Sequence record: MK903282.1
Source of the DNA: Escherichia phage Mansfield
Direction: 5' to 3' (one strand)
Length of the DNA: 64,000 nucleotides
The notes beneath the pieces were generated by a model. The model saw only the letters and a program-made list of their open reading frames with translations. It did not search any database and was not told the origin of the DNA. Both the position numbers and the translations under genes were made by a program. Of the stretch, positions 42,932 to 60,602 are shown piece by piece. Positions within the stretch are counted from its first letter, which is position 1. The number at the start of each line of letters is the position of its first letter.

Positions 42932-44455
42932 TTAATTCATCTTTTTGCCGTCGAGGATGTGATCAGCAAGCATAGACTTCATACTTAGTGAACGCTGAAT
43001 TTCTTCGTCGATGGTATCAACACCAATAAAATCAACATACAACACGCTTGATTTTGTACCGATGCGGTGATTTCGGTCTTCGGATTGCTTGCGCAACTCG
43101 TTGTCGTAGTTGCAAGAATAATAAATTGCCAAATCGGCGGCGGTAAGCGTGATGCCGATGCCTGCCGCTGCAGCGTGGCAAACCAAGACTTGCGTTCCAC
43201 CGTTCTCGACTGTGTTTTTCTGGAAGTCATCAATCAAGAACTCGCGTTGCTCTTTTGACGTTTCACCGTTGTATACACCAGTGACCACACCTTCGGACTC
43301 AAGCCAATCCTTAATCTGGTTCATCTCTTCCTTAAAGATGGCCCAAACAATGAATTTACGTTCTGGGTCGTCTTCCAACACCCCTTCCACATAATCCTTA
43401 AAGGCCGTGAATCGTGGGTTGTCTTCCATGTAGACCATCTCATCATACACCTTAACAAAGCCGGATGTCACCTGCTTCATCTTAGTGCGCGACGCGATCA
43501 TCTCAAACTTGACGTTTTCTTCTTCGCCCTTGTATTCCATCAAATAGTTGTACTCATTCTTGAGTTCATCGTAAACATCGCGTTGTTTAGGCGAAAGCTC
43601 AAAGTCGATAAACTTGTACACCTTCTCTGGAAGGTCCGGCAAGTATTCCGCTTTTGTCGCACGAAAATAGTGCGGTTCCATCAGCCGGATAAGCTTGTCA
43701 AGGTTTTTGTACATCGGTCGGCCAAACTGGTCTTTGCGCGGCACTTGCGGAATCCCATGGCCATTGCCGCCGATTTTCTTGAGGATGGCTTGCATCTCTG
43801 GGTCGTGCGCTTCAAGTAGCACAGTGAATTCAGAGTTGAATGCACGGAATGATTTGGTGCCGAGCAATCCTGCTTCAAGAAAGTGATATTGCATGTAAAT
43901 ATCCGCAGGCGAGCGCGGCAACGGCGTGCCAGAAAGGATTCGACGGGCCTTTGCCAGCCGTCCCAATTCCACAACCTTGATGGAGCGTTTGGCTGTGTTA
44001 TTCTTGATGCGCGTTGATTCGTCGATAATCATCAGGCAGCGGTATTTCTTCAAGACCGACTCAATGTGTTGATAACCGACTGGTGTGTTGACGGTATCAA
44101 TGTTGAATGAGAAAATGCGTGCAGGCACTTCACCTTCAGGGTAGTGATCAGCAAACATCTTCTCCCAAAGCGCCTTGCCCTTTTTAGTCTTCATCTTGTC
44201 ATTGCCGCGCCAGTAGTGCCCAATCCATTTGATGGAAAGGTGTTCTGGTGCTTCACGACGAATCCAGTTTGAGTGGACACCGTTTGGAGCGATGACGACC
44301 ATGGCATCGAACGCGCCAGCGGCGAAGTGCTTTTCAAACTCTGCCAAAGCGGTCCAGGTTTTGCCAAGACCCTGTTCCATGAAATAGGCAAAGTATTTTC
44401 TGCGGCCTGCTTTATCAAGCGCCAGAAGCTGGTGGCGCATCCCTTGTGTTTTCAT
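42932..44455 (-). CDS. SNF2-family helicase/ATPase
   Basis: Walker A GLGKT, DExx box IIDEST, SNF2 C-terminal helicase block. Confidence 0.85.
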   Translation of the reverse strand: MKTQGMRHQLLALDKAGRRKYFAYFMEQGLGKTWTALAEFEKHFAAGAFDAMVVIAPNGVHSNWIRREAPEHLSIKWIGHYWRGNDKMKTKKGKALWEKMFADHYPEGEVPARIFSFNIDTVNTPVGYQHIESVLKKYRCLMIIDESTRIKNNTAKRSIKVVELGRLAKARRILSGTPLPRSPADIYMQYHFLEAGLLGTKSFRAFNSEFTVLLEAHDPEMQAILKKIGGNGHGIPQVPRKDQFGRPMYKNLDKLIRLMEPHYFRATKAEYLPDLPEKVYKFIDFELSPKQRDVYDELKNEYNYLMEYKGEEENVKFEMIASRTKMKQVTSGFVKVYDEMVYMEDNPRFTAFKDYVEGVLEDDPERKFIVWAIFKEEMNQIKDWLESEGVVTGVYNGETSKEQREFLIDDFQKNTVENGGTQVLVCHAAAAGIGITLTAADLAIYYSCNYDNELRKQSEDRNHRIGTKSSVLYVDFIGVDTIDEEIQRSLSMKSMLADHILDGKKMN

Positions 44456-44874
44456 GACAATTCCTCTAAATACTTGATGATGTGATGAATAGTTCCCTTC
44501 ACGATTATCTCACGTTGAACGTCTGCAATATTATAACGCTTTAATTCAATCGAAGGGTGGACTAAATAAAACATCTTCTCAGAATCGACTTTAAGCAAAA
44601 CAAATGATGGGTATTTCCAATCATTCCACGAAGAAAGAAAGCTGCACTGACCTTTCTCAAATGCATTTCTGAAAGGTGCAGTGGTGGCCCTTGCAGGCCA
44701 CGATTCAAAGAACTTCATTTCAAGCCAAAAGCCGCGCCCTTTCCGGTTGGTGCCGATTACATCCGGCACGCCATCACCAGTCATCGATTCGATTCGTTGA
44801 AGCTTCAATATTGATTCTGAATGCTTCTTCAAAGGTACGAATATGTATTTCTGTTCACGGTTATTTGTTGCCAT
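44452..44874 (-). CDS. VRR-NUC-like (PD-(D/E)xK) nuclease
   Basis: Start trimmed to 44874 (AGGTG SD); motif GVPDVIG ... FWLEMK; adjacent to SNF2 helicase. Confidence 0.55.
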   Translation of the reverse strand: MATNNREQKYIFVPLKKHSESILKLQRIESMTGDGVPDVIGTNRKGRGFWLEMKFFESWPARATTAPFRNAFEKGQCSFLSSWNDWKYPSFVLLKVDSEKMFYLVHPSIELKRYNIADVQREIIVKGTIHHIIKYLEELS

Positions 44875-47758
44875 CTGGATACACCTGTTTGATAACGTCG
44901 ACGATGAACATATCAATGCCTTCAAGCTTGCGCCCTTTCATCAGGAAGAATGCACCGTTCCCAACGTTCTCTGCAATGTATTTCCCGTACTTCTGGAACT
45001 TCTCTGGGCGAATCCTGAAACGCATTGGCGAATCGGTCGAATCGTCTTTGCACATAAGGTCAATGAACTGAGTTTCAAGCTTGTTTCCATACTGGTCAAA
45101 CTCTGCGTAGCGGCCATCGGACTGAAGACCTTTTTTAAGCTTGCCGTGCTTTGTATAAATGCCGCGCTCAAGACGTTTACGTATGCGTGTCGCTTCGTTC
45201 TCGTCAGCCAGCACTTTCTTGGTCAACTTGCCGATTACTATTGCACGCTCGTCATCGCCGACTTCCTTCATCTGGCGTATTGAAGCACCGGAAGTAACGC
45301 CAATCAGATAGGGGTCATTATACGCCCAGCCGAACTTTGTGTGCATTTCTGTAAGGTCGCCGTATTTGACTTCAGCATTGGCCAATGCGTCCTTTTGTTT
45401 TTGCGTTAAGGTTCCGGCTTCACGTGCTTCGATGTACTTCATCGCCTTCACCATTCCGTACCCTTTAGCGTTCATGATTCCGCCGATTAGCTTTCCGTTA
45501 GCGATGGTCCAGTTCATTGAAGAGTGGTCAGGGTCGATTGGCACATAATCCACGCCTTCCTTTGCAAGTTCACGTAATATCGCAATCGTCTGGTCTTCGT
45601 CCTTGGCAGCGCGTAAGCAAGCAGCGGCAAATTCCAACGGGTAGTGTCGTTTAAGCCACAAGGTCCAGTAGGTCACGACCGCGTATGATACGGAGTGTGA
45701 CTTGTTAAAGCCCCATGACCCGAACGTCGCCATCGCCTGCCAAAGCTTTCTTGCATCCGCTTCCGGTACGCCGTTATTTATTGCGCCTGCAACGAAGTCT
45801 TCGCCAAGCTTGTTAAAGTATTCCTCACCCTTACGACCTGACATCGCCTTACGCACAGCTGACGTTTTCGCCCAGTCGAATGAACCAATCTCTTTAACCA
45901 CGGCCATGATTTGCTCTTGGTAAAGAAACACGCCGTAAGTCTCTTTTAAGTATGGCTCAAGCTGCGGCACATCATACTCAATCGGCGCACGCCCTGCCGC
46001 GCGTTCGATGTATTTCTGGGCCATACCGGATGACAACGGGCCAGGTCGGCCAAGTGCTGTCAGGTTATCGATTTTGTTAAAGTTATCAACGTGCACAAAG
46101 TTGGTTACTGAGCGTACAGCATCGCCTTCAAACTGAAATATGCCTGACATCTTGTTTTCGTTAAGGATGTCAAGGACGCTTTGATCATTGAGCTTGATTC
46201 CGTACAGCGTTTCAGCATCTATCACGCCAGTATCAGAAATGATGCCGAGGGTGCGAAGGCCCAACGCATCAAGCTTCAAAAGGTTAAGATATTCGCTGTC
46301 AGGCTTATCAATTTGTGCAATCCCTTCCGCCGTTACCGTACAGTAATCAGAGATTGGGTCGTTACACACAATGATTCCTGCTGCGTGAACGCCAGTGTGG
46401 GAAGGGTGAATCTCAAGGTCACCCATGCATCGCGCGGCATCAGGATATTTAGCCACAAACTCTTGGCCCGTGGTCGTTGTTGCAAAGGTATCCTCCAGGC
46501 CGTGACCATAACGGGCGTCACCGGATGAGTATTCAAGCAATGCGTTTTTAATGTTGGCCGTTTCGTGATAGCCAATGTTAAACTTCTTACCAACCTGAGC
46601 CATTACTGAGTTGGCCTTAAGCGTGTTGATGTTGCCAAGCTTTGCAACGTTCATTTCGCCGTATTTTTCTTTAAGGTAATCAAACACCATATAGCGTTTG
46701 GTATCCTCAAAGTCAATATCAATATCAGGAAGGTCGGCGCGGCTTACGTCGATGAATCGGGCAAAAAGCAGCTTATACGGGATTGGATCAACTTCCGTGA
46801 TGCCGAGGCAATAACAAACCAATGAACCAGCCGATGAGCCGCGAGCGGGTCCAACGAGCATTTTTGTTTTTGCGAATCGTACAAGGTCCGCTACCACCAG
46901 AAAGTATGAGTCAAAATCTTTCAGCTGAATCTGGTGAATCTCTTCGTTGAATCGGTCCTCATATTCCTGAGTCCATTCTTTGATGTGACCTGCCTTAAGT
47001 CGGTACTCCATCCCCTCACGAGCAAGCTTTACCATGTCACCAGCAAGGTGGATAATCGGTGCCTTGCGCAGCTTCAGGTCAAGCCCCACAATTCCGTTTG
47101 CGATGTCAACTGCATTGGCCGTTGCTTGATTCAGCTCATCTTCTGTCAGGATTCCTTTAAGCTGTTTGCGCAAGTCTTCCGCGTCAACGATGCAGTGCGG
47201 CTTGACCGTGTCGCGAACTTCCCAAGCATAAGCAAAGTCAACGTGCTCAGGTGAAGGCATGTGGTTGTATCCGGTTAAAACCAGCGGCCTTCCGTTGCTG
47301 CGGTGAGCCAATGCCTGGCGCTTAGCCAAAAGGAACGATGATGGGTTGACGTCTATATAATCGTAGTCCTCTGGTCGCAGCAACTCCACGGCACCGCCAC
47401 AGAATTTAACGACGCCATCCAACGCCCCGAACTCTGCACGGGTCAGTCCGCCGCGCTGTGTTGCAAGTGTCGTAGCGTTGTAAAAGGATTTCAGGTCAAG
47501 CGCCAATATCCAAGCCTTCGGTTTGAATCCCTTTTTCGGGTCCGCATCAGGGTCGATGATTGGAATCTCCATGCCGAACATAGGCTTGATATCATTCTTC
47601 TGACATTCCTTTTCCCAGCGAACGTGACCCCATGTATTGTTATCAACTAATGCCGCGACTTCGCAGCCCAACTCTTTGAGCCGTGCTATAATTTCAGGAT
47701 GCCGTCCATATACTTCTTTGAACGTGTAACCGCTGCGAACTCTCAATTGTGGAAACAT
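44861..47758 (-). CDS. dnaE: DNA polymerase III alpha subunit-like replicase
   Basis: PHP-like N-terminus; signature GPARGSSAGSLVCYCLGITEVDP; 965 aa. Confidence 0.9.
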   Translation of the reverse strand: MFPQLRVRSGYTFKEVYGRHPEIIARLKELGCEVAALVDNNTWGHVRWEKECQKNDIKPMFGMEIPIIDPDADPKKGFKPKAWILALDLKSFYNATTLATQRGGLTRAEFGALDGVVKFCGGAVELLRPEDYDYIDVNPSSFLLAKRQALAHRSNGRPLVLTGYNHMPSPEHVDFAYAWEVRDTVKPHCIVDAEDLRKQLKGILTEDELNQATANAVDIANGIVGLDLKLRKAPIIHLAGDMVKLAREGMEYRLKAGHIKEWTQEYEDRFNEEIHQIQLKDFDSYFLVVADLVRFAKTKMLVGPARGSSAGSLVCYCLGITEVDPIPYKLLFARFIDVSRADLPDIDIDFEDTKRYMVFDYLKEKYGEMNVAKLGNINTLKANSVMAQVGKKFNIGYHETANIKNALLEYSSGDARYGHGLEDTFATTTTGQEFVAKYPDAARCMGDLEIHPSHTGVHAAGIIVCNDPISDYCTVTAEGIAQIDKPDSEYLNLLKLDALGLRTLGIISDTGVIDAETLYGIKLNDQSVLDILNENKMSGIFQFEGDAVRSVTNFVHVDNFNKIDNLTALGRPGPLSSGMAQKYIERAAGRAPIEYDVPQLEPYLKETYGVFLYQEQIMAVVKEIGSFDWAKTSAVRKAMSGRKGEEYFNKLGEDFVAGAINNGVPEADARKLWQAMATFGSWGFNKSHSVSYAVVTYWTLWLKRHYPLEFAAACLRAAKDEDQTIAILRELAKEGVDYVPIDPDHSSMNWTIANGKLIGGIMNAKGYGMVKAMKYIEAREAGTLTQKQKDALANAEVKYGDLTEMHTKFGWAYNDPYLIGVTSGASIRQMKEVGDDERAIVIGKLTKKVLADENEATRIRKRLERGIYTKHGKLKKGLQSDGRYAEFDQYGNKLETQFIDLMCKDDSTDSPMRFRIRPEKFQKYGKYIAENVGNGAFFLMKGRKLEGIDMFIVDVIKQVYPDGNK

Positions 47759-48300
47759 TATTTACTCCAGATGTCATATACGCCAATTTGTTGGCAGACT
47801 TTGTGCAGTAATATTACGTCGTCTAATGCACGGTGTTTCTGTTCATATTTTCCGAAATATAATTCATACAACTCTTGAAGCTTAACTCTTCGGCCAAAAA
47901 TAGGCAAGGTTTGCTCGACTGTACAAATGTTTATTTCTGGAAAATTAACATCACCAAGTGTAAGACCTTCGCGCTGTAATGCATAGTCAAGAATGTTTTT
48001 ATCAAACGCATGGTTGTGCGCGATAGTTGCATCCGTCTTCTTGAATATTTCTTTTAGCTGCGGAACGAAATGAATAAATGGTGGATTGCACTCAAGGTCT
48101 TCGTTGGTTAATCCGGTAATCTTCGTGATGATTTCTTCAATCACAATTTCAGGATTAATTATGAACTCGAAGGTTTCAAGAATCTCTTTGCCATCCGTCA
48201 ACAGGCCTGCAAATTCAATAGGGCGCGGCTGCATTCCAAGCGGTGCTTTCGGGTGCACGGTTAATCCGGTTGTTTCGAAGTCATAAGGGAGAAATAACAC
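47758..48300 (-). CDS. dnaQ: DnaQ-like 3'-5' exonuclease
   Basis: Exo motifs DFETTG, HNHAFD, HRALDDV; start overlaps polymerase stop. Confidence 0.85.
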   Translation of the reverse strand: MLFLPYDFETTGLTVHPKAPLGMQPRPIEFAGLLTDGKEILETFEFIINPEIVIEEIITKITGLTNEDLECNPPFIHFVPQLKEIFKKTDATIAHNHAFDKNILDYALQREGLTLGDVNFPEINICTVEQTLPIFGRRVKLQELYELYFGKYEQKHRALDDVILLHKVCQQIGVYDIWSK

Positions 48301-48354
48301 ATTGGCCTCCTACAAAAAGGCCGCCCATTAGGACGGCCACAGATTCAAGATTCG

Positions 48355-48906
48355 TTATGCAGTGTACGGAGTACCGTCTTGATTCAACCGCACGATGAAC
48401 TTAAGGTCGACACCAATGATTTCACGAGTATCAAAGATCACATAGTTGTAACGACGCTGACCAGCAATATTTGGGTTGGTGTGAGAGTCAGTTACGACTT
48501 CCTGCGCAACCTGAATGCCTTCTTCTTTAAAGAACTTACGCCATTCAGCAAGTTCAGCGGCAGTCACATGCATACCAAGATGGCTGACCTGATTATCGTG
48601 CGCATCAAGCATGTCGATGTTTTCGTTGATCCAGTTGCAACCCATTGTGTAGTCAAGGATTTCAAGCTCAAGAGGCTTACCAGCGCCGCCATCGGTGCCG
48701 TTGCCAGCCTGATAGTTGAATCGCAAGTCAGCTTCGTTGGTGCAATCGTCGCGACGACCTTTAAATTCGTCATTTTCAAATACGCGACCAGTAGCAACAA
48801 CATGATCATGGAACCATTCTGTCAGGCCGATTTTAGCCAGAAAATCCTGTGCACGCTTAGCATCTGGAATTGACAGGGCGATTTGTTCAATTTTAAAGTG
48901 TGGCAT
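48355..48906 (-). CDS. hypothetical protein, possibly VOC/glyoxalase-like
   Basis: 183 aa; assignment by eye only. Confidence 0.4.
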   Translation of the reverse strand: MPHFKIEQIALSIPDAKRAQDFLAKIGLTEWFHDHVVATGRVFENDEFKGRRDDCTNEADLRFNYQAGNGTDGGAGKPLELEILDYTMGCNWINENIDMLDAHDNQVSHLGMHVTAAELAEWRKFFKEEGIQVAQEVVTDSHTNPNIAGQRRYNYVIFDTREIIGVDLKFIVRLNQDGTPYTA

Positions 48907-49145: not shown

Positions 49146-49829
49146 TTATTTCCCAAATGGAATATCAGTACCAGACATAAAGCGCCATGCGCCCGTAATT
49201 AAGATATGGCGAATGAAGTCAGCAATTACTTGCGGCTCAGTCTCCAATCCATTCATCAACGCCTTTTTCTGGTATTCAGCAGCATACTCAGGAGTCCAGC
49301 CGCGAGTCGCACAAACAGCATCTTCAATCTGTTTAGACATGCCAGTGCCGCGCAACTTGTTAGGACTAATAGAGAATACCGTAATCCCGTATTTAGGCGT
49401 AAGTTCGTGGGCCATCTGCTTACTGATCATAAGTGCAGCGGCCTTGGAAGCATTATAACACAAGCTGGACGTCATAGGAATATGCGCAGCGTTGGAAACG
49501 ATATTGATCACAAAACCTTTGTTGTCGATAAGACTTTTCAGTGCAGCCTGAGTCGTGTTAACGAAAGAGAAGGCGTTGGTATGCATAACGCGGTTAAATT
49601 CTTCGTAGTTGACATCTTCAAACCAGTTGTTGGAGTTGACGCCAGCACAGTTGATCAAGCCTTCCACGTCGTATTGAGAGAGAAGCTCTTTCATTTGTTT
49701 CGCGTTACGGATGTCATAACCGTTGTCCAAATCAATACCGACGACTTCATGACCGTAAGCACCAAGGGTGTCAAAAATTGATTTACCAAGACCGGAATTG
49801 CAGCCAGTTACAACAATTACTTTTTTCAT
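49146..49829 (-). CDS. short-chain dehydrogenase/reductase (SDR)
   Basis: Cofactor motif TGCNSGLG and catalytic YNASK. Confidence 0.8.
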   Translation of the reverse strand: MKKVIVVTGCNSGLGKSIFDTLGAYGHEVVGIDLDNGYDIRNAKQMKELLSQYDVEGLINCAGVNSNNWFEDVNYEEFNRVMHTNAFSFVNTTQAALKSLIDNKGFVINIVSNAAHIPMTSSLCYNASKAAALMISKQMAHELTPKYGITVFSISPNKLRGTGMSKQIEDAVCATRGWTPEYAAEYQKKALMNGLETEPQVIADFIRHILITGAWRFMSGTDIPFGK

Positions 49830-52093: not shown

Positions 52094-53089
52094 TTATTTA
52101 TTAGCAATATAAGCAAATTTTTGATAGTTATTTGCTTTGATGAGTTTTTCAACTTCAGCAAGGTCATGAGCGACGTCATCAAGCAAAATGTTGCGCCAGG
52201 TAGCAAATCGACCGACACTAAACACATTCAAATCCATAGTCAGCTGCAGGAGTAGGGCGTGTCGCAAGTCCTTCGGAATGTCGACAATCTTGCCATATTT
52301 CTGGTCGACCTTTTCAACTTCTTCAAGAGCAATGTCACTCCATGAGAGGCCAAAGGCTGTCAACACTTCGTCGACTTCTGCGCGCAACTTCATGTCACGG
52401 TAACGAGTGATGCCGCCAGCGGCTTCAACTGCAGCTGCACTTACGCTGACCAAAGGAATAGTTTCAATGATAAGCGTGTCACCAGTGATTGATGCGCGGT
52501 AAGTTCTGACGGAGTAGTCAGGGAAGTAAATCGTCTGATACAACTCGCACTTACGTTTAATCTTAAAGCGATAAACACGAATATTTGCCTTATCAAATGA
52601 GAAATCAAGCTTTTGATCAATCCCAGCCAGCTTCATCATGACTGGCAGCGGCGACGTGTTGATGATTGGCGTCTCGCTATAGCCGCAAAGAGTATCAACC
52701 GGAGTATTAAAGAATATGCGGTCACCCAGTTTGTCGACAAGCTGATCATAAAAGTCATCAGGTGCAATATAACGCGTTGCAGTTTTAAGCTTCATAATTG
52801 AACGGCTGCCAAACTGATTGGTGACCTTCATGGAATACATATTGGCAAGGTTGATTGGGCAATGGTCGTGGTAGTAGTTGCCGCGAAAATACACAGCCTT
52901 GTCAACTGTCACGGCCTTGAAAGGGATTCCGGTAATACGGCTTACTTCTTCGCCGCGAAAGCGTAGAAGCGCCTTGTGCTGTTGCGCTCGTTCCCCTGCT
53001 TCGTACACAATAGAGTTCGGGAAGTGACACGCTGTGATAAGTCCTGCCAGTCCGCCGCCGATAATCATTACAGGTTGTTTCATGTTCAT
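52094..53089 (-). CDS. FAD/NAD(P)-binding Rossmann-fold protein
   Basis: N-terminal VMIIGGGLAGL dinucleotide-binding motif; C-terminal GRFATW resembles amine-oxidase/UGM-type flavoenzymes. Confidence 0.6.
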   Translation of the reverse strand: MNMKQPVMIIGGGLAGLITACHFPNSIVYEAGERAQQHKALLRFRGEEVSRITGIPFKAVTVDKAVYFRGNYYHDHCPINLANMYSMKVTNQFGSRSIMKLKTATRYIAPDDFYDQLVDKLGDRIFFNTPVDTLCGYSETPIINTSPLPVMMKLAGIDQKLDFSFDKANIRVYRFKIKRKCELYQTIYFPDYSVRTYRASITGDTLIIETIPLVSVSAAAVEAAGGITRYRDMKLRAEVDEVLTAFGLSWSDIALEEVEKVDQKYGKIVDIPKDLRHALLLQLTMDLNVFSVGRFATWRNILLDDVAHDLAEVEKLIKANNYQKFAYIANK

Positions 53090-53222: not shown

Positions 53223-54068
53223 TTATTCCGCTTGATCACCGTCTTCGGCATCTTCGTTGGATTCAACATCGACAAACTCGATGTGACCCATCTCTTCCAG
53301 CTTGCTCAGGTAGGAGCGAACTGAAGCGCCAAACAGTTGATCTTTAACTTTTTCGCCCAGCTCATCGATAGACTGTGCCACGCCAACTTCGCCTTCTTTG
53401 ATCGCCGCCAGAACGCGTCCACGGGTGGAATGCTCTTGCGGCTGACTCAGGCCATTGCCAGTGTAGATGAAGTGAGTAGCTTTTGCACGACGCTGACCAT
53501 TGGCCTTTTTGGCAGCCTTACGTTCTGCGATGGCTTTGCGACGTTCTTCAGCTTCTTGCTTACGCTGTTCTTTCTGCTGTTCTGCAGCTTCTTTCGCCGC
53601 AATCTTAGCAGCTTCACGCTCTGCCTTGCGTTTCGCTTTGGCTTCTTCTTTGGCCTTCTCTTTTTCGGCCTTCGCTGCAGCACGGGCTTGATCACGCTCT
53701 GCTTTCTTAGCAGCAGCTTGTTCAGCTTTCAGGCGCTTGGCTTCTTCTTTAGCCTTTGCCTTTTCGATTTCTTTCGCTGCTTTAGCGGCTTCACGCTCTG
53801 CTTTCTTAGCAGCAGCCTTTTCTGCACGCTCTTTGGCCTTCTTGGCTGCTTCTTCAGCACGCTTCTGAGCCTTCTCATCAGCAGCCTGCTTGCGTTTCAG
53901 GGCAGCTTCTTCACGCTTGGCTTGTTTTTCCTGCTCACGCTTCTGGCGTTTTTCTTCGGCTTCTTTCTTTTTAGCCAGACGTTTTTCTTCAGCCACGCGA
54001 CGACGTTCTGCTGCAGCTGCTTGTTTTTCTTCTTTAGATAATACTTTGATTGCTTCGGCCATGTTCAC
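53223..54068 (-). CDS. Lys/Ala/Glu-rich low-complexity protein with globular acidic C-terminus
   Basis: About 200 aa of KAE-type charged helix repeats then ~80 aa non-repetitive acidic tail; the antisense ORF 53337..54041 is a composition artefact. Confidence 0.6.
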   Translation of the reverse strand: MNMAEAIKVLSKEEKQAAAAERRRVAEEKRLAKKKEAEEKRQKREQEKQAKREEAALKRKQAADEKAQKRAEEAAKKAKERAEKAAAKKAEREAAKAAKEIEKAKAKEEAKRLKAEQAAAKKAERDQARAAAKAEKEKAKEEAKAKRKAEREAAKIAAKEAAEQQKEQRKQEAEERRKAIAERKAAKKANGQRRAKATHFIYTGNGLSQPQEHSTRGRVLAAIKEGEVGVAQSIDELGEKVKDQLFGASVRSYLSKLEEMGHIEFVDVESNEDAEDGDQAE

Positions 54069-54221: not shown

Positions 54222-55406
54222 TTAACGCGCTTTCAAATCACGGTACACGGTCAGATTCTTTTTAGCGCGGGTAATAGCGGTGTACATCATCTTTGCATAC
54301 GGAACGCCGCGCAGGATTTCTTCCAACACGCACACATTGTCCCACTCGCTGCCTTGCGATTTGTGCACCGTTATGACATAGCCATAGTCCATGCCTCCAA
54401 CGGCTCGTTGGGCCTCTTTGCGCACTTCCTGATCAGTAGAGAAGGAAAGAGGATTTATCTTCACCTTTATATCTTTGCCATCGGTAAGCGAGCGCAAGTT
54501 GACATACATGATTTCATTAGACTCGTCTTCATCCCTTTCAAAGTCCGGCACTGGCTCATAACTAATAACAATCCCTTGCTCGCCATTACAGAATCCTGGA
54601 CCGTGTTGGTTGAATGTGCAAATAACTTTCTCTCCGATTCCTGGCATCGGCGTTATACGTCCGCTCACTTGCCGCAATAATGAATTCCATTTATCTTTGG
54701 TGCTATTATATGAGCAAATAATTTGATCATCTTCGCCCATGAATTTCTTCAACGCAGTAACGCGCGGCGATTCAGCCAACACCTTGACATCATCGTATTC
54801 GCGCGGAGGAAGTCGGTTGCCCTGTCGCACGAAGAAGGAAGCGCGGATGATGTTGGACTCTTTCCCTTGCCGCATGATTTCGGTTAACAGTACGTCAACG
54901 GCATCTTCAGTAAAGTAGGCGGCGGCTTTTACCGGAGGGACTTGTCCAATGTCGCCTAATGCCAGAACAGGGATGCGGTGATCAAGAAGGCGCTCTGTGT
55001 CCCACTCGCCAACCATTGAAGCTTCATCAAGGACGACAAGATGCGGCCTTTCATCAAGCGTTGACTTCCTTGCAAAGATTGGTTCATTGTCATCGTTAAC
55101 GCCGCGCACGTTATAGATGAACTGGTGAAGGGTCTTAGCGCCACGACACCCTTTCTGCTTCAATCGGCTGGCGGCCTTTCCGGTCGGCGCAATATAAATG
55201 GCACCGTACTCACCGACACAACGGCGCACAATCTCACGCGCAATAGAGGTTTTACCTGTTCCTGCATAGCCAGCGATGAAAAACACGCGCTTCGTTGTTT
55301 TGCCGTCCTGCAATCGCTTGTACCATGCAACGGCCTTTTCGATGGCGTCAATCTGTTGCGCGTTAAACTGAATCACTGGCTCATCATTAAATTCTGGAAT
55401 GTTCAT
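54222..55406 (-). CDS. dda: SF1B helicase (Dda/RecD-like)
   Basis: Walker A GYAGTGKT, Walker B VVLDEASMV, C-terminal VITVHKSQGSEWD. Confidence 0.85.
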   Translation of the reverse strand: MNIPEFNDEPVIQFNAQQIDAIEKAVAWYKRLQDGKTTKRVFFIAGYAGTGKTSIAREIVRRCVGEYGAIYIAPTGKAASRLKQKGCRGAKTLHQFIYNVRGVNDDNEPIFARKSTLDERPHLVVLDEASMVGEWDTERLLDHRIPVLALGDIGQVPPVKAAAYFTEDAVDVLLTEIMRQGKESNIIRASFFVRQGNRLPPREYDDVKVLAESPRVTALKKFMGEDDQIICSYNSTKDKWNSLLRQVSGRITPMPGIGEKVICTFNQHGPGFCNGEQGIVISYEPVPDFERDEDESNEIMYVNLRSLTDGKDIKVKINPLSFSTDQEVRKEAQRAVGGMDYGYVITVHKSQGSEWDNVCVLEEILRGVPYAKMMYTAITRAKKNLTVYRDLKAR

Positions 55407-55892: not shown

Positions 55893-56975
55893 ATGGCTAG
55901 TTTAAGAGAAGAAGCAAAAATAATCGAAGAGTTTTTGACAGAACTCCAAAGAGGCATTCCAGAAGATGAACGCGTCATGACCGTGTTTGCGCCTGAAGCA
56001 ACGGTGCAGACCGACGAGCGCGGCAAAAAGATTAACAGCAGCTTCTGGCCTAAGCCTTGGAAGCTTGGCAAGCCGCTGATGCAACATCAGAACGGTTACG
56101 CCTGCATAAGTTCAATGCGTAAGTCTCCCAACCCAAAGACAGGCGAGATGCGATACTGGCGCACGGAATCGGCTTTCGGTCATGGCATGGCGATGATGGT
56201 CGACGACATCGGTCACGGTAAAGGGTCCAAAGGCGATTTAGATTTAGAGTTCTTTTTCGAGAGTCTGAAGCCAACCGTCATTGTTGAGACTTCACCGAAC
56301 AACCACCAGCTGTGGTATTTCTTTAAAGACCCGATTGACCATCTTATCCAGTTCAAAGCATTCCTTGGGTCTTTCGTAAACATGGTACTCAAGAAGGGCG
56401 GCGACAACACGATTAAAGACGTGACGCGCGTGGGCCGTGTTCCTGGTTGCATCAACAACAAGCGTGTGACTCACGACGGCCCTTACAAATATGTCGATGA
56501 GAACGGCGACCCGTTCCGCTGCCGACTTGTCCATGCAGACTATTCTTTGCGATACACAATCGAAGAGATTTGCCAAGCCTTCGGTTTCCACGTCGTTATG
56601 CCGCAAAAGCGTGAAATTCAAATCGACGTTGACGAATACAAATATGATGCTGTTTGGTATAAAATAGCCCAGCAAATCCTTGCTCGCAATAAGATGGGTG
56701 AAGGGTCCGATGGCGATGTTGTTGAAAACATGTCAGGTAAATGCCGCATCATCTGCCCTTGGGGTGAAGAGCACACCAACGGCGACCCATATGGCGCTTA
56801 CTTTCGCGGCCCAATCCCTGGCGCTGAACATGAATTCGTTTTCGGTTGCGCTCACGACTGTCACCGGAAAGGTGAAGGTAAGAAAGGCTGGACAGCTTTT
56901 GTTGAAGCAGTAGTCATGCCTTATATTGAGAATCAACTTGATATGATAAATCGTCGCGCAGGTGGCATAAAATAG
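55893..56975 (+). CDS. primase-polymerase (AEP/prim-pol-like) with C-terminal zinc ribbon
   Basis: AEP-like motifs MVDDIG, SPNNHQLWYF, RVPGCINNK; Cys/His cluster CPWGEEH...CAHDCH. Confidence 0.6.
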   Translation: MASLREEAKIIEEFLTELQRGIPEDERVMTVFAPEATVQTDERGKKINSSFWPKPWKLGKPLMQHQNGYACISSMRKSPNPKTGEMRYWRTESAFGHGMAMMVDDIGHGKGSKGDLDLEFFFESLKPTVIVETSPNNHQLWYFFKDPIDHLIQFKAFLGSFVNMVLKKGGDNTIKDVTRVGRVPGCINNKRVTHDGPYKYVDENGDPFRCRLVHADYSLRYTIEEICQAFGFHVVMPQKREIQIDVDEYKYDAVWYKIAQQILARNKMGEGSDGDVVENMSGKCRIICPWGEEHTNGDPYGAYFRGPIPGAEHEFVFGCAHDCHRKGEGKKGWTAFVEAVVMPYIENQLDMINRRAGGIK

Positions 56976-58284: not shown

Positions 58285-59955
58285 ATGTCAATTGAACATG
58301 ACAATCTTCCAGAGGATACAGGTGATGAATTTGGTGCAATCTTTGACGAAATTCAAGACGCTGGTGTTTCAGAAGAAATGCAAGCGGCAGAGCAGCAAGG
58401 CACCAGAGCTAAAATCAGCCTACAGCACAAGGCTGTTGAGAAAGATGCAGAGCGCATGGAATGCTACGGTGAAGAAGACTTGGTTGAAAGGGCACGTTTG
58501 CTCGCCTCACTTCAGGTAATCAAGTTCCCTCACTACAAACCGACGAAAGATGATTTTGTTCTTCAGGCGGACCGGACGAGTGACATGAACCGTTATGCGG
58601 TTTTCGACGCGTTGTTTGATAAGGGAAGTGGCGTTGTTCCATTCCCTCACAAAGATACTTTTCGTGGACGCTTAGTCGACCATCGCGGCGAAACTTTCAC
58701 CGACCGGACGTTGGAAGTTACAGAGATAGTTGCCGCTGTCGATGCAGCAGGACTGTCCAACCCAAACTCACGTCAGGTCGCTCAATCCTATAAGGAATGG
58801 GCCATGCGTTATCAGCGCGACGACCTGATGGACTTCTTCTACAAGAAGCTGCCTGAATGGGACGGTACTGCGCGCATTGAGAAATACCTTATCGAGCTAT
58901 TCCGACCGTTCGATACAGAGTTAAACCGACAAATCGGTGTGTATTTTTGGCTATCGCTCTATAACCGCCTGACCAACCCTGGCTGTCAAGCGCCAATCTC
59001 CATCGCGCTCATCGGCGGCCAGAACGCAGGGAAGAGTTATTTTAGCAAGCTGCTTTGCGAAGCTATTATGAACGACCGCCACGCAACACCGATTCCGTTG
59101 AACTTGGCCGCGCAGAACTTCAACCCGTTCTTGCGAGCTATTACGGGTCGCTCAATTATCGCGAACGTTGGCGAGATGACAGGCTTTAAAAAGGCTGACA
59201 TCGAAAACATGAAAGCATTCCTGACTAAGACGGAAGATGACCTGGACTTCAAATTTGAGGACACGCAGGTTAAACCACGCCAGTGGATTGCTATCATGGA
59301 CGGCAACGAATACGCAGGCATGCAGCGTGACGACACGGGCAACCGTCGTGTATACCCTATATTTGTTGGCCAACTCGCTGACAAGGACGGGCAACCGAAC
59401 TGGTCTAAAGACTTCCAAGCTGACCTTTCCACTTTGAAAGAAGACGTTTGGCAGCTGATGGCTGAGTGCGCTGCTTGGATGGAGAAGCACGGCGAAGCAG
59501 GTTACAATGCCTTTGTTGGTGAAACGTCTCGCATGCTTACTGAGTTCAGTAAGAACGAAATGGAACGCGCTCGCGGCGTTATCCGTGATGAGATGGTCGA
59601 CAACGACCTTGTTGAAGTCGTCATCACCGCGCCTTATGACCGACATCACAGCGGACGCTGGCACATCACCAGTGGTGCAATCGCTATGGGATTCAGAGCT
59701 AAGTGCGGCAAGTCGCCTTTCTCACGTACCCTTGCGCCGCACATGTCGAAGCTTGGATTTGAGCCTGCGACCTATCGCAACCAGCGCGGTTACTTTACGC
59801 CGCTGATTAAGAATGAAGCAGGGGAATACATTTCTGACCTGATGACTATTTTGGCGTATCTTATCCGCGACGAATCTGACCCTGAAGATATTGAATTCTT
59901 GAAGAAGGTTATTGAGCGCAAACGTTCTTTAGGAAGAGATAAGGATGAATTCTGA
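58285..59955 (+). CDS. SF3-type replicative helicase (primase C-terminal/VirE-like)
   Basis: Walker A LIGGQNAGKS; size and arrangement typical of phage primase-helicase C-terminal half; AGGAGG SD. Confidence 0.65.
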   Translation: MSIEHDNLPEDTGDEFGAIFDEIQDAGVSEEMQAAEQQGTRAKISLQHKAVEKDAERMECYGEEDLVERARLLASLQVIKFPHYKPTKDDFVLQADRTSDMNRYAVFDALFDKGSGVVPFPHKDTFRGRLVDHRGETFTDRTLEVTEIVAAVDAAGLSNPNSRQVAQSYKEWAMRYQRDDLMDFFYKKLPEWDGTARIEKYLIELFRPFDTELNRQIGVYFWLSLYNRLTNPGCQAPISIALIGGQNAGKSYFSKLLCEAIMNDRHATPIPLNLAAQNFNPFLRAITGRSIIANVGEMTGFKKADIENMKAFLTKTEDDLDFKFEDTQVKPRQWIAIMDGNEYAGMQRDDTGNRRVYPIFVGQLADKDGQPNWSKDFQADLSTLKEDVWQLMAECAAWMEKHGEAGYNAFVGETSRMLTEFSKNEMERARGVIRDEMVDNDLVEVVITAPYDRHHSGRWHITSGAIAMGFRAKCGKSPFSRTLAPHMSKLGFEPATYRNQRGYFTPLIKNEAGEYISDLMTILAYLIRDESDPEDIEFLKKVIERKRSLGRDKDEF

Positions 59956-60602
59956 TGAATAAAGCAATCAACATCGCTAAATTCTTTCAACATCTCGGTG
60001 AACTGAACAAAGAGAGTGACGTTCACGGAGAAGAAATGAACCGGATGATTTCAACCGTGTTGCGTGGTTTTGGTTACGATAAAGACTCCATCACCTGTAA
60101 ACGCACGAAGCTTGTCGATGAGACATACCTTTACTACGTTGAATTGCGCGTAGGGAAAGATTTGATGATCATCGACCCTAAATTGGAAGGGGCGCACTGT
60201 TTTGGCGCTCACCCTCGTGCAAGTGAATTCAAGGGGCGCGGTCGTAACCGACTCCAGAAGCTTGATGATGCAGGCGACTTGAACATCTCGATGTTCCTCA
60301 AAGAGTTCCTTGCTTTGCCGAAGGTTGCGTCTTCAACGGGTCGTGATGACCTTTGCAAGATTGGATTCAGAACTAAAGATTTGCGCAATGCGCTACGCAA
60401 GAAGGGATTTGTGCCTTCTTATGATAACGTCGCCGCGCTGATGGCTTCCATGGAGGAAGCTGAAGCAATGGACAAGGTGCGCGGCTATTTCCTGAATACA
60501 GGCTGCACAATGTATGAGTGGCACACCAAAGGATTGACGGTCGCCGACTTCATCTATTCATTAGAGCAGAAGTATGTACGCAATATGCAGGCCACAGGAT
60601 AA
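59955..60602 (+). CDS. hypothetical protein (215 aa)
   Basis: ORF, start overlaps helicase stop. Confidence 0.5.
   Translation: MNKAINIAKFFQHLGELNKESDVHGEEMNRMISTVLRGFGYDKDSITCKRTKLVDETYLYYVELRVGKDLMIIDPKLEGAHCFGAHPRASEFKGRGRNRLQKLDDAGDLNISMFLKEFLALPKVASSTGRDDLCKIGFRTKDLRNALRKKGFVPSYDNVAALMASMEEAEAMDKVRGYFLNTGCTMYEWHTKGLTVADFIYSLEQKYVRNMQATG

What the first reader, a model, noticed from the sequence alone, without database searches (positions are those of the whole stretch)
44861..48300. Phage-encoded bacterial-type replicase: Pol III alpha-like polymerase with separate DnaQ-like proofreader
A 965-aa DnaE-like polymerase (PHP domain, GPARGSSAGSLV signature) is translationally coupled to a DnaQ-like exonuclease with all three Exo motifs. 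It is shorter than cellular DnaE (about 1160 aa), suggesting loss of C-terminal clamp or tau-interaction regions, and no phage clamp or clamp loader was recognised in the window.
Basis: established knowledge. Interest (0 to 1): 0.45.

Follow-up and report, generated by a model that had tools for sequence, protein, structure and literature searches.

The report
Phage DnaE polymerase with separate proofreader
This E. coli phage (genus Wifcevirus) carries its own bacterial-type DNA polymerase gene next to a small proofreading exonuclease gene; the pair is real and well supported, but it is already annotated and published for this phage group, so it is an ordinary finding.

Summary
ORF 44861..47758(-) encodes a 965-aa C-family (DnaE-type) DNA polymerase. 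ORF 47758..48300(-) encodes a 180-aa DEDDh exonuclease. The two overlap by one base (TAATG).

The window is about 97% identical to Wifcevirus phages (WFH, kaset, ECML-117, FEC19). Both genes are already annotated there and listed in a 2020 paper.

An AlphaFold model (pLDDT 87) matches DnaE1 structures (TM 0.74). It shows PHP, polymerase core, a shortened (HhH)2 region and a C-terminal OB fold. The protein ends 6 residues after the OB fold, so the tau-binding domain is absent. No beta-clamp-binding motif exists in either protein or is conserved in the family. The PHP metal ligands are almost all lost.

The exonuclease corresponds to the catalytic domain of E. coli epsilon only (TM 0.83-0.86), without epsilon's alpha-binding tail. 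No clamp, clamp loader or SSB family was detected in the window or in a relative's full genome.

The best reading is a two-subunit phage replicase core detached from the host holoenzyme scaffold. Its processivity mechanism is unknown. Kazlauskas and Venclovas (2011) already described this general pattern for phage C-family polymerases. Verdict: already known, low interest.

The parts
48319..48338 (-). Intrinsic-terminator-like hairpin (GGCCGTCC-TAAT-GGGCGGCC followed by TTTTT) ending the upstream gene, immediately before the exonuclease ribosome-binding site
   Evidence: 8-bp stem, 7 G-C pairs, T tract. A 'terminator' feature is annotated at the same place in phage WFH. Consensus match only; function not shown.
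48306..48311 (-). Shine-Dalgarno AGGAGG, 5 nt upstream of the GTG start of the exonuclease
   Evidence: read directly from the sequence
47758..48300 (-). 180-aa DEDDh 3'-5' exonuclease (epsilon/DnaQ-like catalytic domain only); Exo I D7/E9, Exo II D100, Exo III H156/D161; conserved C-terminal G[VIL]Y[DNE]x[FW]
47756..47760 (-). TAATG junction: exonuclease stop codon and polymerase start codon share one base (47758), which implies translational coupling
   Evidence: The same 1-nt overlap occurs in Pbunavirus Ab28 and Vibrio phage VA-RY-3.
47039..47758 (-). Polymerase residues 1-240: PHP domain, about 50 aa shorter than in E. coli, with metal ligands degenerate (R6/R8 in place of HxH, Y18 for D, N40 for H; E64 kept)
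45641..47038 (-). Polymerase residues 241-706: Pol3 core (palm, thumb, fingers); catalytic D345, D347 and D497 plus conserved D349; GPARGSSAGSLV at 303-314
45248..45640 (-). Polymerase residues 707-837: region equivalent to the beta-binding/(HhH)2 domain. The first HhH aligns to E. coli up to residue 857. The remainder is about 52 aa shorter, and no Q..LF-type clamp motif is present or conserved.
44882..45247 (-). Polymerase residues 838-959: C-terminal OB fold (basic, pI 9.65) with a conserved VLADENEAxRxKKR helix and a Wifcevirus-specific insertion of about 30 aa (863-893)
   Evidence: strand/helix topology; local Foldseek hits to RPA, Stn1, AsnRS and OBody OB folds
44861..44881 (-). Polymerase residues 960-965 and the stop codon: the protein ends 6 residues after the OB fold, so there is no tau-binding C-terminal domain
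44452..44874 (-). 140-aa gene overlapping the polymerase 3' end by 14 nt and the next gene by 4 nt. It is annotated 'DNA helicase' (phrog_2165) but is too small to be one. It is possibly a PD-(D/E)xK (RecU/VRR-NUC-like) nuclease and belongs to the same tightly coupled cassette.
   Evidence: (RecU E = 0.044 only)
42932..44455 (-). 507-aa SNF2-family helicase, last gene of the exo-pol-small gene-SNF2 cassette conserved in Pbunavirus
58285..59955 (+). 556-aa VapE/D5-like (SF3-type) primase-helicase: inferred replicative helicase and candidate tether for the polymerase (context, inferred partner)
55893..56975 (+). 360-aa RepB'-type primase (context, inferred partner)
54222..55406 (-). 394-aa Dda/RecD-like SF1 helicase (context)

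Best explanation
The two genes encode the phage's own replicative polymerase core. The 108-kDa subunit is an alpha-like (DnaE-type, C-family) catalytic subunit, and the 21-kDa subunit is a separate epsilon-like DEDDh 3'-5' proofreading exonuclease. They are produced together from overlapping cistrons at the head of a conserved cassette: exonuclease, polymerase, small nuclease-like protein, SNF2 helicase. The polymerase keeps an intact active site, a PHP domain that has lost its zinc ligands (so it serves as scaffold, not nuclease), a reduced (HhH)2 region and an OB fold. It lacks the two features that plug cellular DnaE1 into the holoenzyme: the beta-clamp-binding motif and the tau-binding C-terminal domain. 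The exonuclease is only the catalytic domain of epsilon and lacks epsilon's clamp motif and alpha-binding tail. The core therefore probably does not join the host Pol III holoenzyme. It more likely works at a phage-built fork with the VapE/D5-like helicase, RepB'-type primase, Dda-like helicase and ATP-dependent ligase, using host SSB. Shown here: identity, fold, catalytic residues, domain losses, gene coupling and its conservation, and absence of detectable clamp or loader genes. Inferred: that the two proteins bind each other, that the exonuclease proofreads, and how processivity is obtained.
For: Family and fold: (TM 0.74 to DnaE1 structures; PolC weaker). Active site: D345/D347/D349/D497 equal E. 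coli D401/D403/D405/D555 and are invariant in 75 sequences. Domain map and truncation after the OB fold. No clamp motif in the polymerase, the exonuclease or any replication ORF, and none conserved in family columns 780-842. PHP ligands are lost, whereas an actinophage DnaE with a canonical PHP (Pfam 1e-32) has no adjacent exonuclease gene. This matches the bacterial pattern described in PMC3919608. Exonuclease: DEDDh residues invariant; fold equals epsilon186; nearest solved sequence is a PolC exonuclease domain. The exo-pol 1-nt overlap is conserved at 56-59% identity (Pbunavirus) and at 33-37% identity (Vibrio podophage). It is the only DNA polymerase in the genome, and every non-structural ORF of 350 aa or more is otherwise assigned. 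No clamp, loader or SSB family was found. Published gene lists agree: PMC7048862.
Against: There is no direct evidence that the two proteins interact. The exonuclease lacks the C-terminal segment through which E. coli epsilon binds the alpha PHP domain, so any contact must be made differently. No biochemical study of a phage DnaE was found in the searchable literature. Clamps are hard to detect by sequence, and many small ORFs remain unassigned, so a divergent processivity factor cannot be excluded. The pair starts directly after a terminator-like hairpin, and the sigma-70 consensus scan placed no promoter-like site between that hairpin and the exonuclease start, so its transcription is not explained. 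The second HhH motif is assigned only from the secondary structure of the model.
Confidence: 0.8

Rival explanations
1. Same enzyme, but not autonomous. The phage polymerase still rides on the host beta clamp, loaded by the host clamp loader, through a non-canonical or structural contact. Candidates are the retained (HhH)2/OB region or the conserved C-terminal G[VIL]Y[DNE]x[FW] peptide of the exonuclease. This would explain why the phage carries no clamp genes.
For: No phage clamp or loader was detected. Cellular DnaE2 and DnaE3 often keep only weak, non-canonical motifs (PMC3919608). The exonuclease family has a conserved aromatic C-terminal peptide at the position where epsilon carries QTSMAF. 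A fast infection cycle is reported for these phages (PMC7048862; PMC11990801), which calls for a fast and processive replicase.
Against: No Q..LF, Qxx[LM]xF or even xxxLF motif is present or conserved between the (HhH)2 region and the OB fold. The exonuclease terminal motif has an acidic residue at the key hydrophobic position 4, and no Gln is conserved. The segment that carries the motif in E. coli is about 52 aa shorter. The same architecture serves phages of hosts as different as Pseudomonas, Xanthomonas, Burkholderia, Escherichia and Vibrio.
Confidence: 0.3
2. The exonuclease is not a proofreading subunit. It is a free-standing DEDDh nuclease with another job, such as host DNA or primer degradation, recombination-end processing, or destruction of nucleotide signals of host defence. 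Its position next to the polymerase would then reflect only operon organisation.
For: It lacks epsilon's alpha-binding tail. Its fold is also close to TREX1/2, ExoX, DinG-N and 3'hExo. One relative is annotated 'three-prime repair exonuclease I'.
Against: The one-base overlap with the polymerase is conserved down to 33% identity in an unrelated podophage. The best structural match is epsilon itself, and the best sequence matches are PolC exonuclease domains. The partner polymerase has lost its own PHP nuclease site, while a phage DnaE with an intact PHP has no such neighbour.
Confidence: 0.12
3. The polymerase is a specialised, error-prone or repair polymerase (DnaE2/ImuC-like), as one GenBank record names it, while the host Pol III holoenzyme replicates the phage genome.
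For: Like DnaE2 it lacks the CTD and a canonical clamp motif and has a degenerate PHP (PMC3919608). Phage T34 annotates the orthologue 'dnaE2: error-prone DNA polymerase'.
Against: The NCBIfam DnaE2 model scores lower (331 bits, cut-off 939) than the DnaE1 model (494 bits). The gene is coupled to a proofreading-type exonuclease, which is the opposite of an error-prone design. It sits in a complete phage replication module with its own helicases, primase and ligase. It is strictly conserved at 56-99% identity across hundreds of lytic phages. No imuA or imuB partner appears in the annotation.
Confidence: 0.05

Closest known systems
Orthologous gene pair of Lindbergviridae phages (Wifcevirus WFH, kaset, ECML-117, FEC19, vB_Eco4M-7; Pbunavirus e.g. 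Ab28 gp72/gp71)
   Same: The same two genes in the same order with the same 1-nt overlap and the same downstream small gene plus SNF2 helicase. Protein identity is 99.7% to FEC19 and about 59% to Pbunavirus. They are already annotated 'DNA polymerase III alpha subunit' and 'DEDDH exonuclease / DNA polymerase exonuclease subunit', and are listed in PMC7048862.
   Different: Nothing essential differs. Wifcevirus has an insertion of about 30 aa in the OB fold. Pbunavirus has an extra insertion of about 50-70 aa and an acidic C-terminal tail.
E. coli DNA polymerase III core (alpha DnaE1 + epsilon DnaQ)
   Same: PHP, palm, thumb, fingers, first HhH and OB folds. The catalytic Asp triad. A PHP domain that is not a nuclease, combined with a separate DEDDh proofreader. 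The exonuclease fold equals epsilon186.
   Different: No internal (QADMF) or C-terminal (QVELEF) clamp motif and no tau-binding CTD. The PHP is 50 aa shorter and even more degenerate. The exonuclease has no QTSMAF motif and no C-terminal alpha-binding segment. No theta, beta, tau, gamma, delta or delta' genes are present. NCBIfam equivalog cut-offs are not reached (494 vs 1002 bits).
Cellular DnaE2 and CTD-less DnaE3 or DnaE1 variants (Timinskas et al. 2014, PMC3919608)
   Same: A PHP-Pol3-(HhH)2-OB architecture truncated after the OB fold, a disrupted PHP metal site, and a weak or absent clamp motif (one search compared).
   Different: Those enzymes lack a dedicated proofreader and act beside a main replicase (PolC or DnaE1). 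Here the enzyme is the only polymerase and is coupled to an exonuclease. Its profile scores favour DnaE1 over DnaE2 and DnaE3.
Other phage C-family polymerases (Kazlauskas & Venclovas 2011, PMC3201878; 2016, PMC4889955), e.g. actinophage DnaE-like polymerases and Bacillus phage 0305phi8-36
   Same: A C-family polymerase in a phage whose sequence similarity to E. coli alpha stops after the fingers, usually with no clamp in the genome. About 2.5% of sequenced phages (1,262 of 50,697 records) carry one.
   Different: Actinophage versions (e.g. Gordonia phage Commandaria) keep a canonical PHP nuclease site and have no separate exonuclease gene next to the polymerase. 0305phi8-36 has a QADMF-aligned motif and its own beta homologue. 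Here the 'unassigned' C-terminal region resolves into a cryptic OB fold.
PolC of Firmicutes
   Same: The exonuclease's best sequence matches are PolC exonuclease domains (TIGR01405 7.6e-18; PDB 2p1j).
   Different: In PolC the exonuclease is inserted in the PHP domain and the OB fold is N-terminal. Here the exonuclease is a separate protein and the OB fold is C-terminal. The PolC fold match is weaker (TM 0.63).

Membership tests
C-family DNA polymerase, DnaE type | Pol3 core (palm, thumb, fingers) with the catalytic Asp triad | tested here: met
   PF07733 3e-63 and PF17657 1.6e-37. D345/D347/D497 align to E. coli D401/D403/D555 and are invariant. TM 0.74 to DnaE1 structures.
C-family DNA polymerase, DnaE type | N-terminal PHP domain without an inserted exonuclease (distinguishes DnaE from PolC) | tested here: met
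   PHP 8e-6, just above the Pfam cut-off. The model is confident over residues 1-240. hhalign covers E. coli residues 4-857. There is no insertion; the exonuclease is a separate ORF.
C-family DNA polymerase, DnaE type | Tandem (HhH)2 after the fingers | tested here: inconclusive
   The first HhH aligns to E. coli 836-857. The second is inferred only from helices 786-793 and 804-819 of the model. There is no Pfam HHH_6 hit for this protein, and only a weak one (0.0015) in the Vibrio phage homologue.
C-family DNA polymerase, DnaE type | OB fold C-terminal to the core | tested here: met
   Strand/helix topology of residues 838-959. Local Foldseek matches to RPA, Stn1, AsnRS and OBody OB folds with TMt 0.6-0.76. 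Not detectable by sequence.
DnaE1 (main bacterial replicase, E. coli alpha type) | Beta-clamp-binding motif (Q..LF type) after the (HhH)2, present in 99% of DnaE1 (PMC3919608) | tested here: not met
   No match to Q..[LMI]F, Qxx[LMIV]xF or QLxLx[LF] in the protein. No conserved Gln or LF pair in family columns 780-842.
DnaE1 (main bacterial replicase, E. coli alpha type) | C-terminal tau-binding domain (CTD) | tested here: not met
   The protein ends 6 residues after the last OB strand. Family lengths are 930-1040 aa.
DnaE1 (main bacterial replicase, E. coli alpha type) | NCBIfam equivalog score | tested here: not met
   PRK05673 scores 494 bits against a cut-off of 1002. Only the superfamily model TIGR00594 passes (474 vs 434).
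DnaE2 / ImuC error-prone polymerase | Subfamily profile score and association with imuA/imuB | tested here: not met
   PRK05672 scores 331 bits against a cut-off of 939, lower than the DnaE1 models. No imuA- or imuB-like gene appears in the annotation of the relative or among the ORFs scanned.
PHP-type proofreading polymerases (T. aquaticus and M. tuberculosis DnaE1) | Nine conserved metal ligands forming a trinuclear Zn centre (PMC5636811) | tested here: not met
   HxH is replaced by R6/R8, D by Y18 and H by N40. Only E64 is clearly kept, plus possibly one position of the terminal DxH. The reference used was an actinophage DnaE with the canonical pattern.
DnaQ/epsilon-like DEDDh 3'-5' exonuclease | Exo I (DxE), Exo II (D) and Exo III (Hx4D) catalytic residues, and the RNase T/DnaQ fold | tested here: met
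   D7, E9, D100, H156 and D161 are invariant in 57 sequences. PF00929 1.6e-21. Model pLDDT 94.6 with TM 0.83-0.86 and rmsd 2.6 A to E. coli epsilon186.
Pol III epsilon subunit (proteobacterial DnaQ equivalog) | C-terminal segment that binds the alpha PHP domain, and the QTSMAF clamp motif | tested here: not met
   The protein ends about 19 residues after Exo III (D161). The family is 177-209 aa long. TIGR01406 scores 43.6 bits against a cut-off of 222.7.
Pol III epsilon subunit (proteobacterial DnaQ equivalog) | Physical complex with the polymerase and proofreading of its errors | not testable with these tools
   Only indirect support: a conserved 1-nt gene overlap and the complementary loss of the PHP nuclease site.
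Clamp-dependent replicase (polymerase + sliding clamp + loader) | Phage-encoded clamp (beta, gp45 or PCNA type) and AAA+ clamp loader | tested here: not met
   No such family in any non-structural ORF of 90 aa or more in the window or in the early genes of relative kaset that lie outside the window. The only hit is a 2e-4 P-loop match of the Dda-like helicase to phrog_168. Highly divergent clamps could escape detection.

The most novel reading that the evidence does not exclude
The Lindbergviridae alpha-epsilon pair may be a naturally minimal C-family replicase that works without any sliding clamp or tau-like organiser. Processivity and fork coupling would then come from direct contact with the phage VapE/D5-like helicase, or from the basic OB domain with its conserved DENEAxRxKKR helix. 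The exonuclease would bind the polymerase through a new interface, possibly its conserved C-terminal G[VIL]Y[DNE]x[FW] peptide, instead of an epsilon-type tail. If so, it would be the first clamp-independent Pol III-type replisome, and a compact two-protein fast polymerase that might help explain the 10-minute infection cycle reported for these phages.
Probability: 0.3. Interest if true: 0.5.

Novelty: already known. Interest (0 to 1): 0.17.

Why it matters
As it stands the finding matters little. It correctly re-identifies a gene pair that GenBank records and a 2020 paper already name. It also restates the broader point, that phage C-family polymerases lose similarity to E. coli alpha after the fingers and usually come without a clamp, which was made in 2011.

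The small added value from this work:
- The unassigned C-terminus is a cryptic OB fold, with the protein ending right after it.
- The PHP zinc site is essentially gone, whereas actinophage DnaE enzymes keep it and lack the exonuclease partner.
- The proofreader is an epsilon186-only protein.

These points make a concrete, testable question: how does a Pol III-type polymerase achieve processive, fast replication with no clamp motif, no tau-binding domain and no phage clamp? The phages concerned (Pbunavirus, Wifcevirus) are used therapeutically and are now culturable on E. coli K-12 derivatives.

Tried and rejected
1. Hidden clamp, loader or SSB. I scanned all non-structural ORFs of 90 aa or more with PHROGs, Pfam and NCBIfam, and the early genes of relative kaset that fall outside the window. 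Nothing was found. The two clamp-sized unknowns were rejected on reading the sequences: the 331-aa protein starts with a GxGxxG Rossmann motif, and the 281-aa protein is K/E/A-rich low complexity.

2. Clamp-binding motifs. Regex searches in the polymerase, the exonuclease and every ORF of 60 aa or more, plus a column-by-column inspection of family positions 780-842, found no canonical or weak motif. Hits occurred only in structural genes or antisense ORFs. The exonuclease C-terminal 'QQIGVY' looked superficially like QL[SD]LF but was rejected: the Gln is not conserved, and the conserved register GVYDAF has Asp at the key hydrophobic position.

3. Sequence alignment of the C-terminal 180 residues to E. 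coli alpha. MAFFT gave an unreliable alignment and hhalign stopped at E. coli residue 857. The domain could only be assigned from the AlphaFold model.

4. The 140-aa gene between the polymerase and the SNF2 helicase as a possible processivity or tau-like factor. It has no Pfam or PDB hit, and only a marginal RecU similarity at E = 0.044. It remains unassigned, with a small nuclease as the tentative reading.

5. Literature search for biochemistry of any phage-encoded DnaE. None was found in the searchable library.

6. A sigma-70 promoter for the pair. The scan placed no promoter-like site between the upstream terminator-like hairpin and the exonuclease start, and the total number of sites did not exceed the shuffled expectation.

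7. Not attempted, because the tools do not allow it: a structure prediction of the exonuclease-polymerase complex (single chains only), and residue-level superposition of the model on E. coli alpha.

Full report
**1. The observation**

The polymerase is 44861..47758 on the minus strand (965 aa, ATG start). The exonuclease is 47758..48300 on the minus strand (180 aa, GTG start). The exonuclease start is preceded by AGGAGG five bases upstream. Its TAA stop shares its last A with the polymerase ATG (..AAATAATGTTT..).

A terminator-like hairpin at 48338..48319 closes the preceding gene. At the 3' end the polymerase overlaps a 140-aa gene by 14 nt (ATG at 44874), and that gene overlaps an SNF2-family helicase by 4 nt. 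The four genes therefore form one tightly coupled cassette.

**2. Identity of the polymerase**

- Pfam gives DNA_pol3_alpha (3e-63), DNA_pol3_finger (1.6e-37) and a borderline PHP hit (8e-6).
- PHROGs gives phrog_405 'DNA polymerase' at 1e-270.
- NCBIfam passes only the superfamily model TIGR00594. All equivalogs fall far below cut-off, and the best is the DnaE1 model PRK05673 (494 bits against 1002).
- A PDB sequence search finds T. aquaticus and E. coli alpha at 1e-84.
- An AlphaFold2 model built on 75 family members is confident (pLDDT 87.3, pTM 0.80). It matches full-length DnaE1 structures (M. tuberculosis 7pu7 TM 0.74; Taq 2hpi and 3e0d; E. coli 5fku) better than PolC (TM 0.63).
- The catalytic residues D345/D347/D497, with D349, correspond to E. 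coli D401/D403/D555 and D405. They are invariant in the family, as is the GPARGSSAGSLV segment.

**3. Where the missing 195 residues went**

| Region | E. coli alpha | Phage polymerase | Difference |
|---|---|---|---|
| PHP | up to residue 290 | up to residue 240 | -50 |
| Polymerase core | 291-778 | 241-706 | -22 |
| Rest of the (HhH)2 / clamp-motif segment | 858-963 | 784-837 | -52 |
| OB fold | 964-1078 | 838-959 | +7 |
| Tau-binding CTD | 1079-1160 | 960-965 | -76 |

Profile alignment to E. coli stops at residue 857, just after the first HhH. The model then shows two or three short helices followed by a five-stranded domain with an inter-strand helix at 838-959. That domain gives local Foldseek hits to classical OB folds: RPA, Stn1, Teb1, AsnRS and OBody.

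The protein ends six residues after the OB fold, so the tau-binding C-terminal domain is absent. The segment that carries QADMF in E. coli is about 52 aa shorter here. The E. coli domain boundaries used are established knowledge (the Lamers et al. 2006 and Fernandez-Leiro et al. 2015 structures) and were not retested here.

**4. Clamp-binding motifs**

Neither protein matches Q..[LMI]F, Qxx[LMIV]xF or QLxLx[LF]. In family columns 780-842 no Gln and no hydrophobic pair is conserved. No replication-module ORF in the window has such a motif. According to PMC3919608, 99% of DnaE1 enzymes have this motif and 91% have the CTD. This enzyme is therefore a DnaE-type polymerase but not a DnaE1 member. 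Its architecture resembles the CTD-less DnaE2 and DnaE3 variants.

**5. The PHP domain**

I used a Gordonia phage DnaE as a canonical reference. It has a PHP hit of 1e-32 and shows HxH, D, H, E, H, C and DxH. Against it, the Wifcevirus protein has R6/R8 for HxH, Y18 for Asp and N40 for His, and clearly keeps only E64. It cannot build the trinuclear zinc centre described for PHP proofreaders (PMC5636811).

The actinophage with the intact PHP has no exonuclease gene adjacent to its polymerase. The Lindbergviridae enzymes with the dead PHP have one, translationally coupled.

**6. The exonuclease**

- RNase_T 1.6e-21.
- The best NCBIfam hits are DEDD and PolC-type exonuclease domains, ahead of proteobacterial DnaQ.
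- The best solved sequence is the T. maritima PolC exonuclease domain.
- The AlphaFold model (pLDDT 94.6) superposes best on E. coli epsilon186 (2gui, 2ido, 1j53; TM 0.83-0.86, rmsd 2.6 A over about 177 columns).
- D7, E9, D100, H156 and D161 are invariant.
- The family is uniformly 177-209 aa long and ends about 20 residues after Exo III.

It therefore has neither epsilon's QTSMAF clamp motif nor the C-terminal segment that tethers epsilon to the alpha PHP domain. A short conserved C-terminal motif, G[VIL]Y[DNE]x[FW], forms a terminal helix in the model and is a candidate interaction element. That role is an inference only.

**7. Conservation of the pairing**

The same exo-pol one-base overlap, followed by the small gene and the SNF2 helicase, is present in Pbunavirus Ab28 (exonuclease 56% identical, polymerase about 59%). 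A 40-kb Vibrio podophage also has a 191-aa 'hypothetical protein' overlapping its DnaE by one base. It is the same exonuclease (33% identity, E = 6e-19, RNase_T 1.7e-23).

**8. Genome context and missing accessory factors**

The window is a Wifcevirus (Lindbergviridae). It is about 97% identical in DNA to WFH, kaset, ECML-117 and FEC19, and its polymerase is 99.7% identical to that of FEC19.

The replication module contains:
- a VapE/D5-like primase-helicase,
- a RepB'-type primase,
- a Dda-like helicase,
- the SNF2 helicase,
- an ATP-dependent ligase,
- MazG, ThyA and a polynucleotide kinase/phosphatase.

No clamp, clamp loader or SSB family was found in any non-structural ORF of 90 aa or more. 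None was found in the early genes of kaset that lie outside the window. All non-structural ORFs large enough to be a polymerase are otherwise assigned, so this is the only DNA polymerase.

**9. What is already known**

- GenBank records name the genes 'DNA polymerase III alpha subunit' and 'DEDDH exonuclease / DNA polymerase exonuclease subunit / epsilon'.
- Necel et al. 2020 list both in the replication block shared by these phages (PMC7048862).
- About 2.5% of sequenced phages (1,262 of 50,697 records) carry a DnaE-like polymerase, and 377 match over the full length.
- The protein database holds thousands of homologues, the closest 120 all on contigs up to about 74 kb, many of them 66-73 kb.
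- Kazlauskas and Venclovas 2011 (PMC3201878) stated that viral C-family polymerases resemble E. coli alpha from the PHP domain through the fingers and then lose detectable similarity. They found that only Bacillus phage 0305phi8-36 has both a QADMF-aligned motif and a beta homologue.
- The 2016 survey (PMC4889955) places C-family polymerases as rare and phage-only among viruses.

**10. Mechanism**

The best-supported reading (confidence 0.8) is a two-subunit phage replicase core. It has an alpha-like catalytic subunit whose PHP domain is only a scaffold, plus an epsilon186-like proofreader. The overlapping cistrons would couple their synthesis, and the core is detached from the host holoenzyme scaffold.

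How it becomes processive is open. Three options remain:
- use of the host clamp through a non-canonical contact (about 0.3),
- coupling to the phage helicase or intrinsic processivity through the basic OB domain (the novel case, about 0.3),
- an undetected phage factor.

The alternative that the exonuclease has a non-proofreading role (0.12), and the alternative that the polymerase is a DnaE2-like repair enzyme (0.05), are both disfavoured. The evidence against them is the conserved coupling, the complementary PHP loss and the profile scores.

**11. Verdict**

The feature is already known. This work adds a few modest details: the cryptic OB fold, the exact domain losses, the epsilon186-only proofreader, and the contrast with actinophage PHP-active enzymes. 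Interest is low (0.17).

Noticed in passing
window 52094..53089 (-): A 331-aa protein of unknown function (phrog_4828; no Pfam or NCBIfam hit). Its N-terminus MIIGGGLAGLITA is a GxGxxG dinucleotide-binding (FAD/NAD Rossmann) motif. It sits among the nucleotide-metabolism and replication genes (ThyA, PNK) and could be a flavoenzyme acting on nucleotides or DNA.
   Followed up: partly
window 53223..54068 (-): A 281-aa protein (phrog_4765, unknown function). About 190 residues are K/E/A-rich low-complexity, coiled-coil sequence resembling histone H1 or AlgP. A C-terminal globular region of about 80 aa follows, acidic at its tip. It may be a DNA- or nucleoid-binding protein inside the replication module.
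   Followed up: partly
window 44452..44874 (-): A 140-aa gene annotated 'DNA helicase' in relatives (phrog_2165) that is far too small to be a helicase. It overlaps the polymerase by 14 nt and the SNF2 helicase by 4 nt. It contains a ..DVIG..WLEMKF.. pattern and gives a marginal RecU hit (E = 0.044), suggesting a PD-(D/E)xK nuclease. The annotation is probably wrong. The longest ORF starts at a TTG (44925), but the ATG at 44874 matches the relatives' annotation.
   Followed up: partly
window 48355..48906 (-) and 49146..49829 (-): A glyoxalase/VOC-like 183-aa protein (weak Pfam hit, 0.0055) and a FabG-like short-chain dehydrogenase (1e-31) lie between the replicase pair and the polynucleotide kinase. 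These are unexpected metabolic-type genes in a replication operon, conserved in the relative kaset.
   Followed up: no
window 48319..48338 (-): A strong terminator-like hairpin lies only 8 nt upstream of the exonuclease Shine-Dalgarno sequence. The sigma-70 scan placed no promoter-like site between the hairpin and the exonuclease start. The replicase cassette must be expressed by read-through or from a phage-specific promoter type.
   Followed up: partly
window 44882..45247 (-), polymerase residues 848-862 and 905-918: The most conserved C-terminal elements of the polymerase family are a helix VLADENEAxRxKKR inserted in the OB fold and a DDSTDSPMRFRIRP strand-loop. Wifcevirus has an extra insertion of about 30 aa (863-893) that most relatives lack. 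The function is unknown; these are candidate DNA- or partner-binding sites.
   Followed up: partly
window 47758..47790 (-), exonuclease residues 171-180: The exonuclease family has a conserved C-terminal motif G[VIL]Y[DNE]x[FW], forming a short terminal helix at the position where E. coli epsilon carries its clamp motif. It is not a canonical clamp motif. It may be how this tail-less exonuclease contacts the polymerase.
   Followed up: partly
homologues P0115 (1232 aa) and P0094 (1215 aa); phages Ro157lw and AV128: Some family members carry insertions in the polymerase gene. P0115 has an intein-splicing domain (PF14890) and P0094 is similarly enlarged. Two Wifcevirus genomes show insertions of about 126-158 bp in this 4-kb region. 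The window's copy has no intein.
   Followed up: no
L007 (Gordonia phage Commandaria) 3989..7297: This actinophage DnaE-like polymerase (1102 aa) keeps a canonical PHP metal-ligand pattern (Pfam PHP 1e-32) and has no adjacent DEDDh exonuclease gene. That is the mirror image of the Lindbergviridae arrangement, suggesting that phage DnaE enzymes follow their hosts' two proofreading solutions.
   Followed up: partly
window 55893..56975 (+) and 58285..59955 (+): The bacterial-type polymerase is combined with a plasmid RSF1010 RepB'-type primase (PF16793, 3e-36) and a VapE/D5-like helicase (PF05272, 1.6e-28), not with DnaG and DnaB. This is a mosaic replisome. A 215-aa ORF with no detectable family (59955..60602) is start/stop-overlapped with the helicase gene.
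   Followed up: partly
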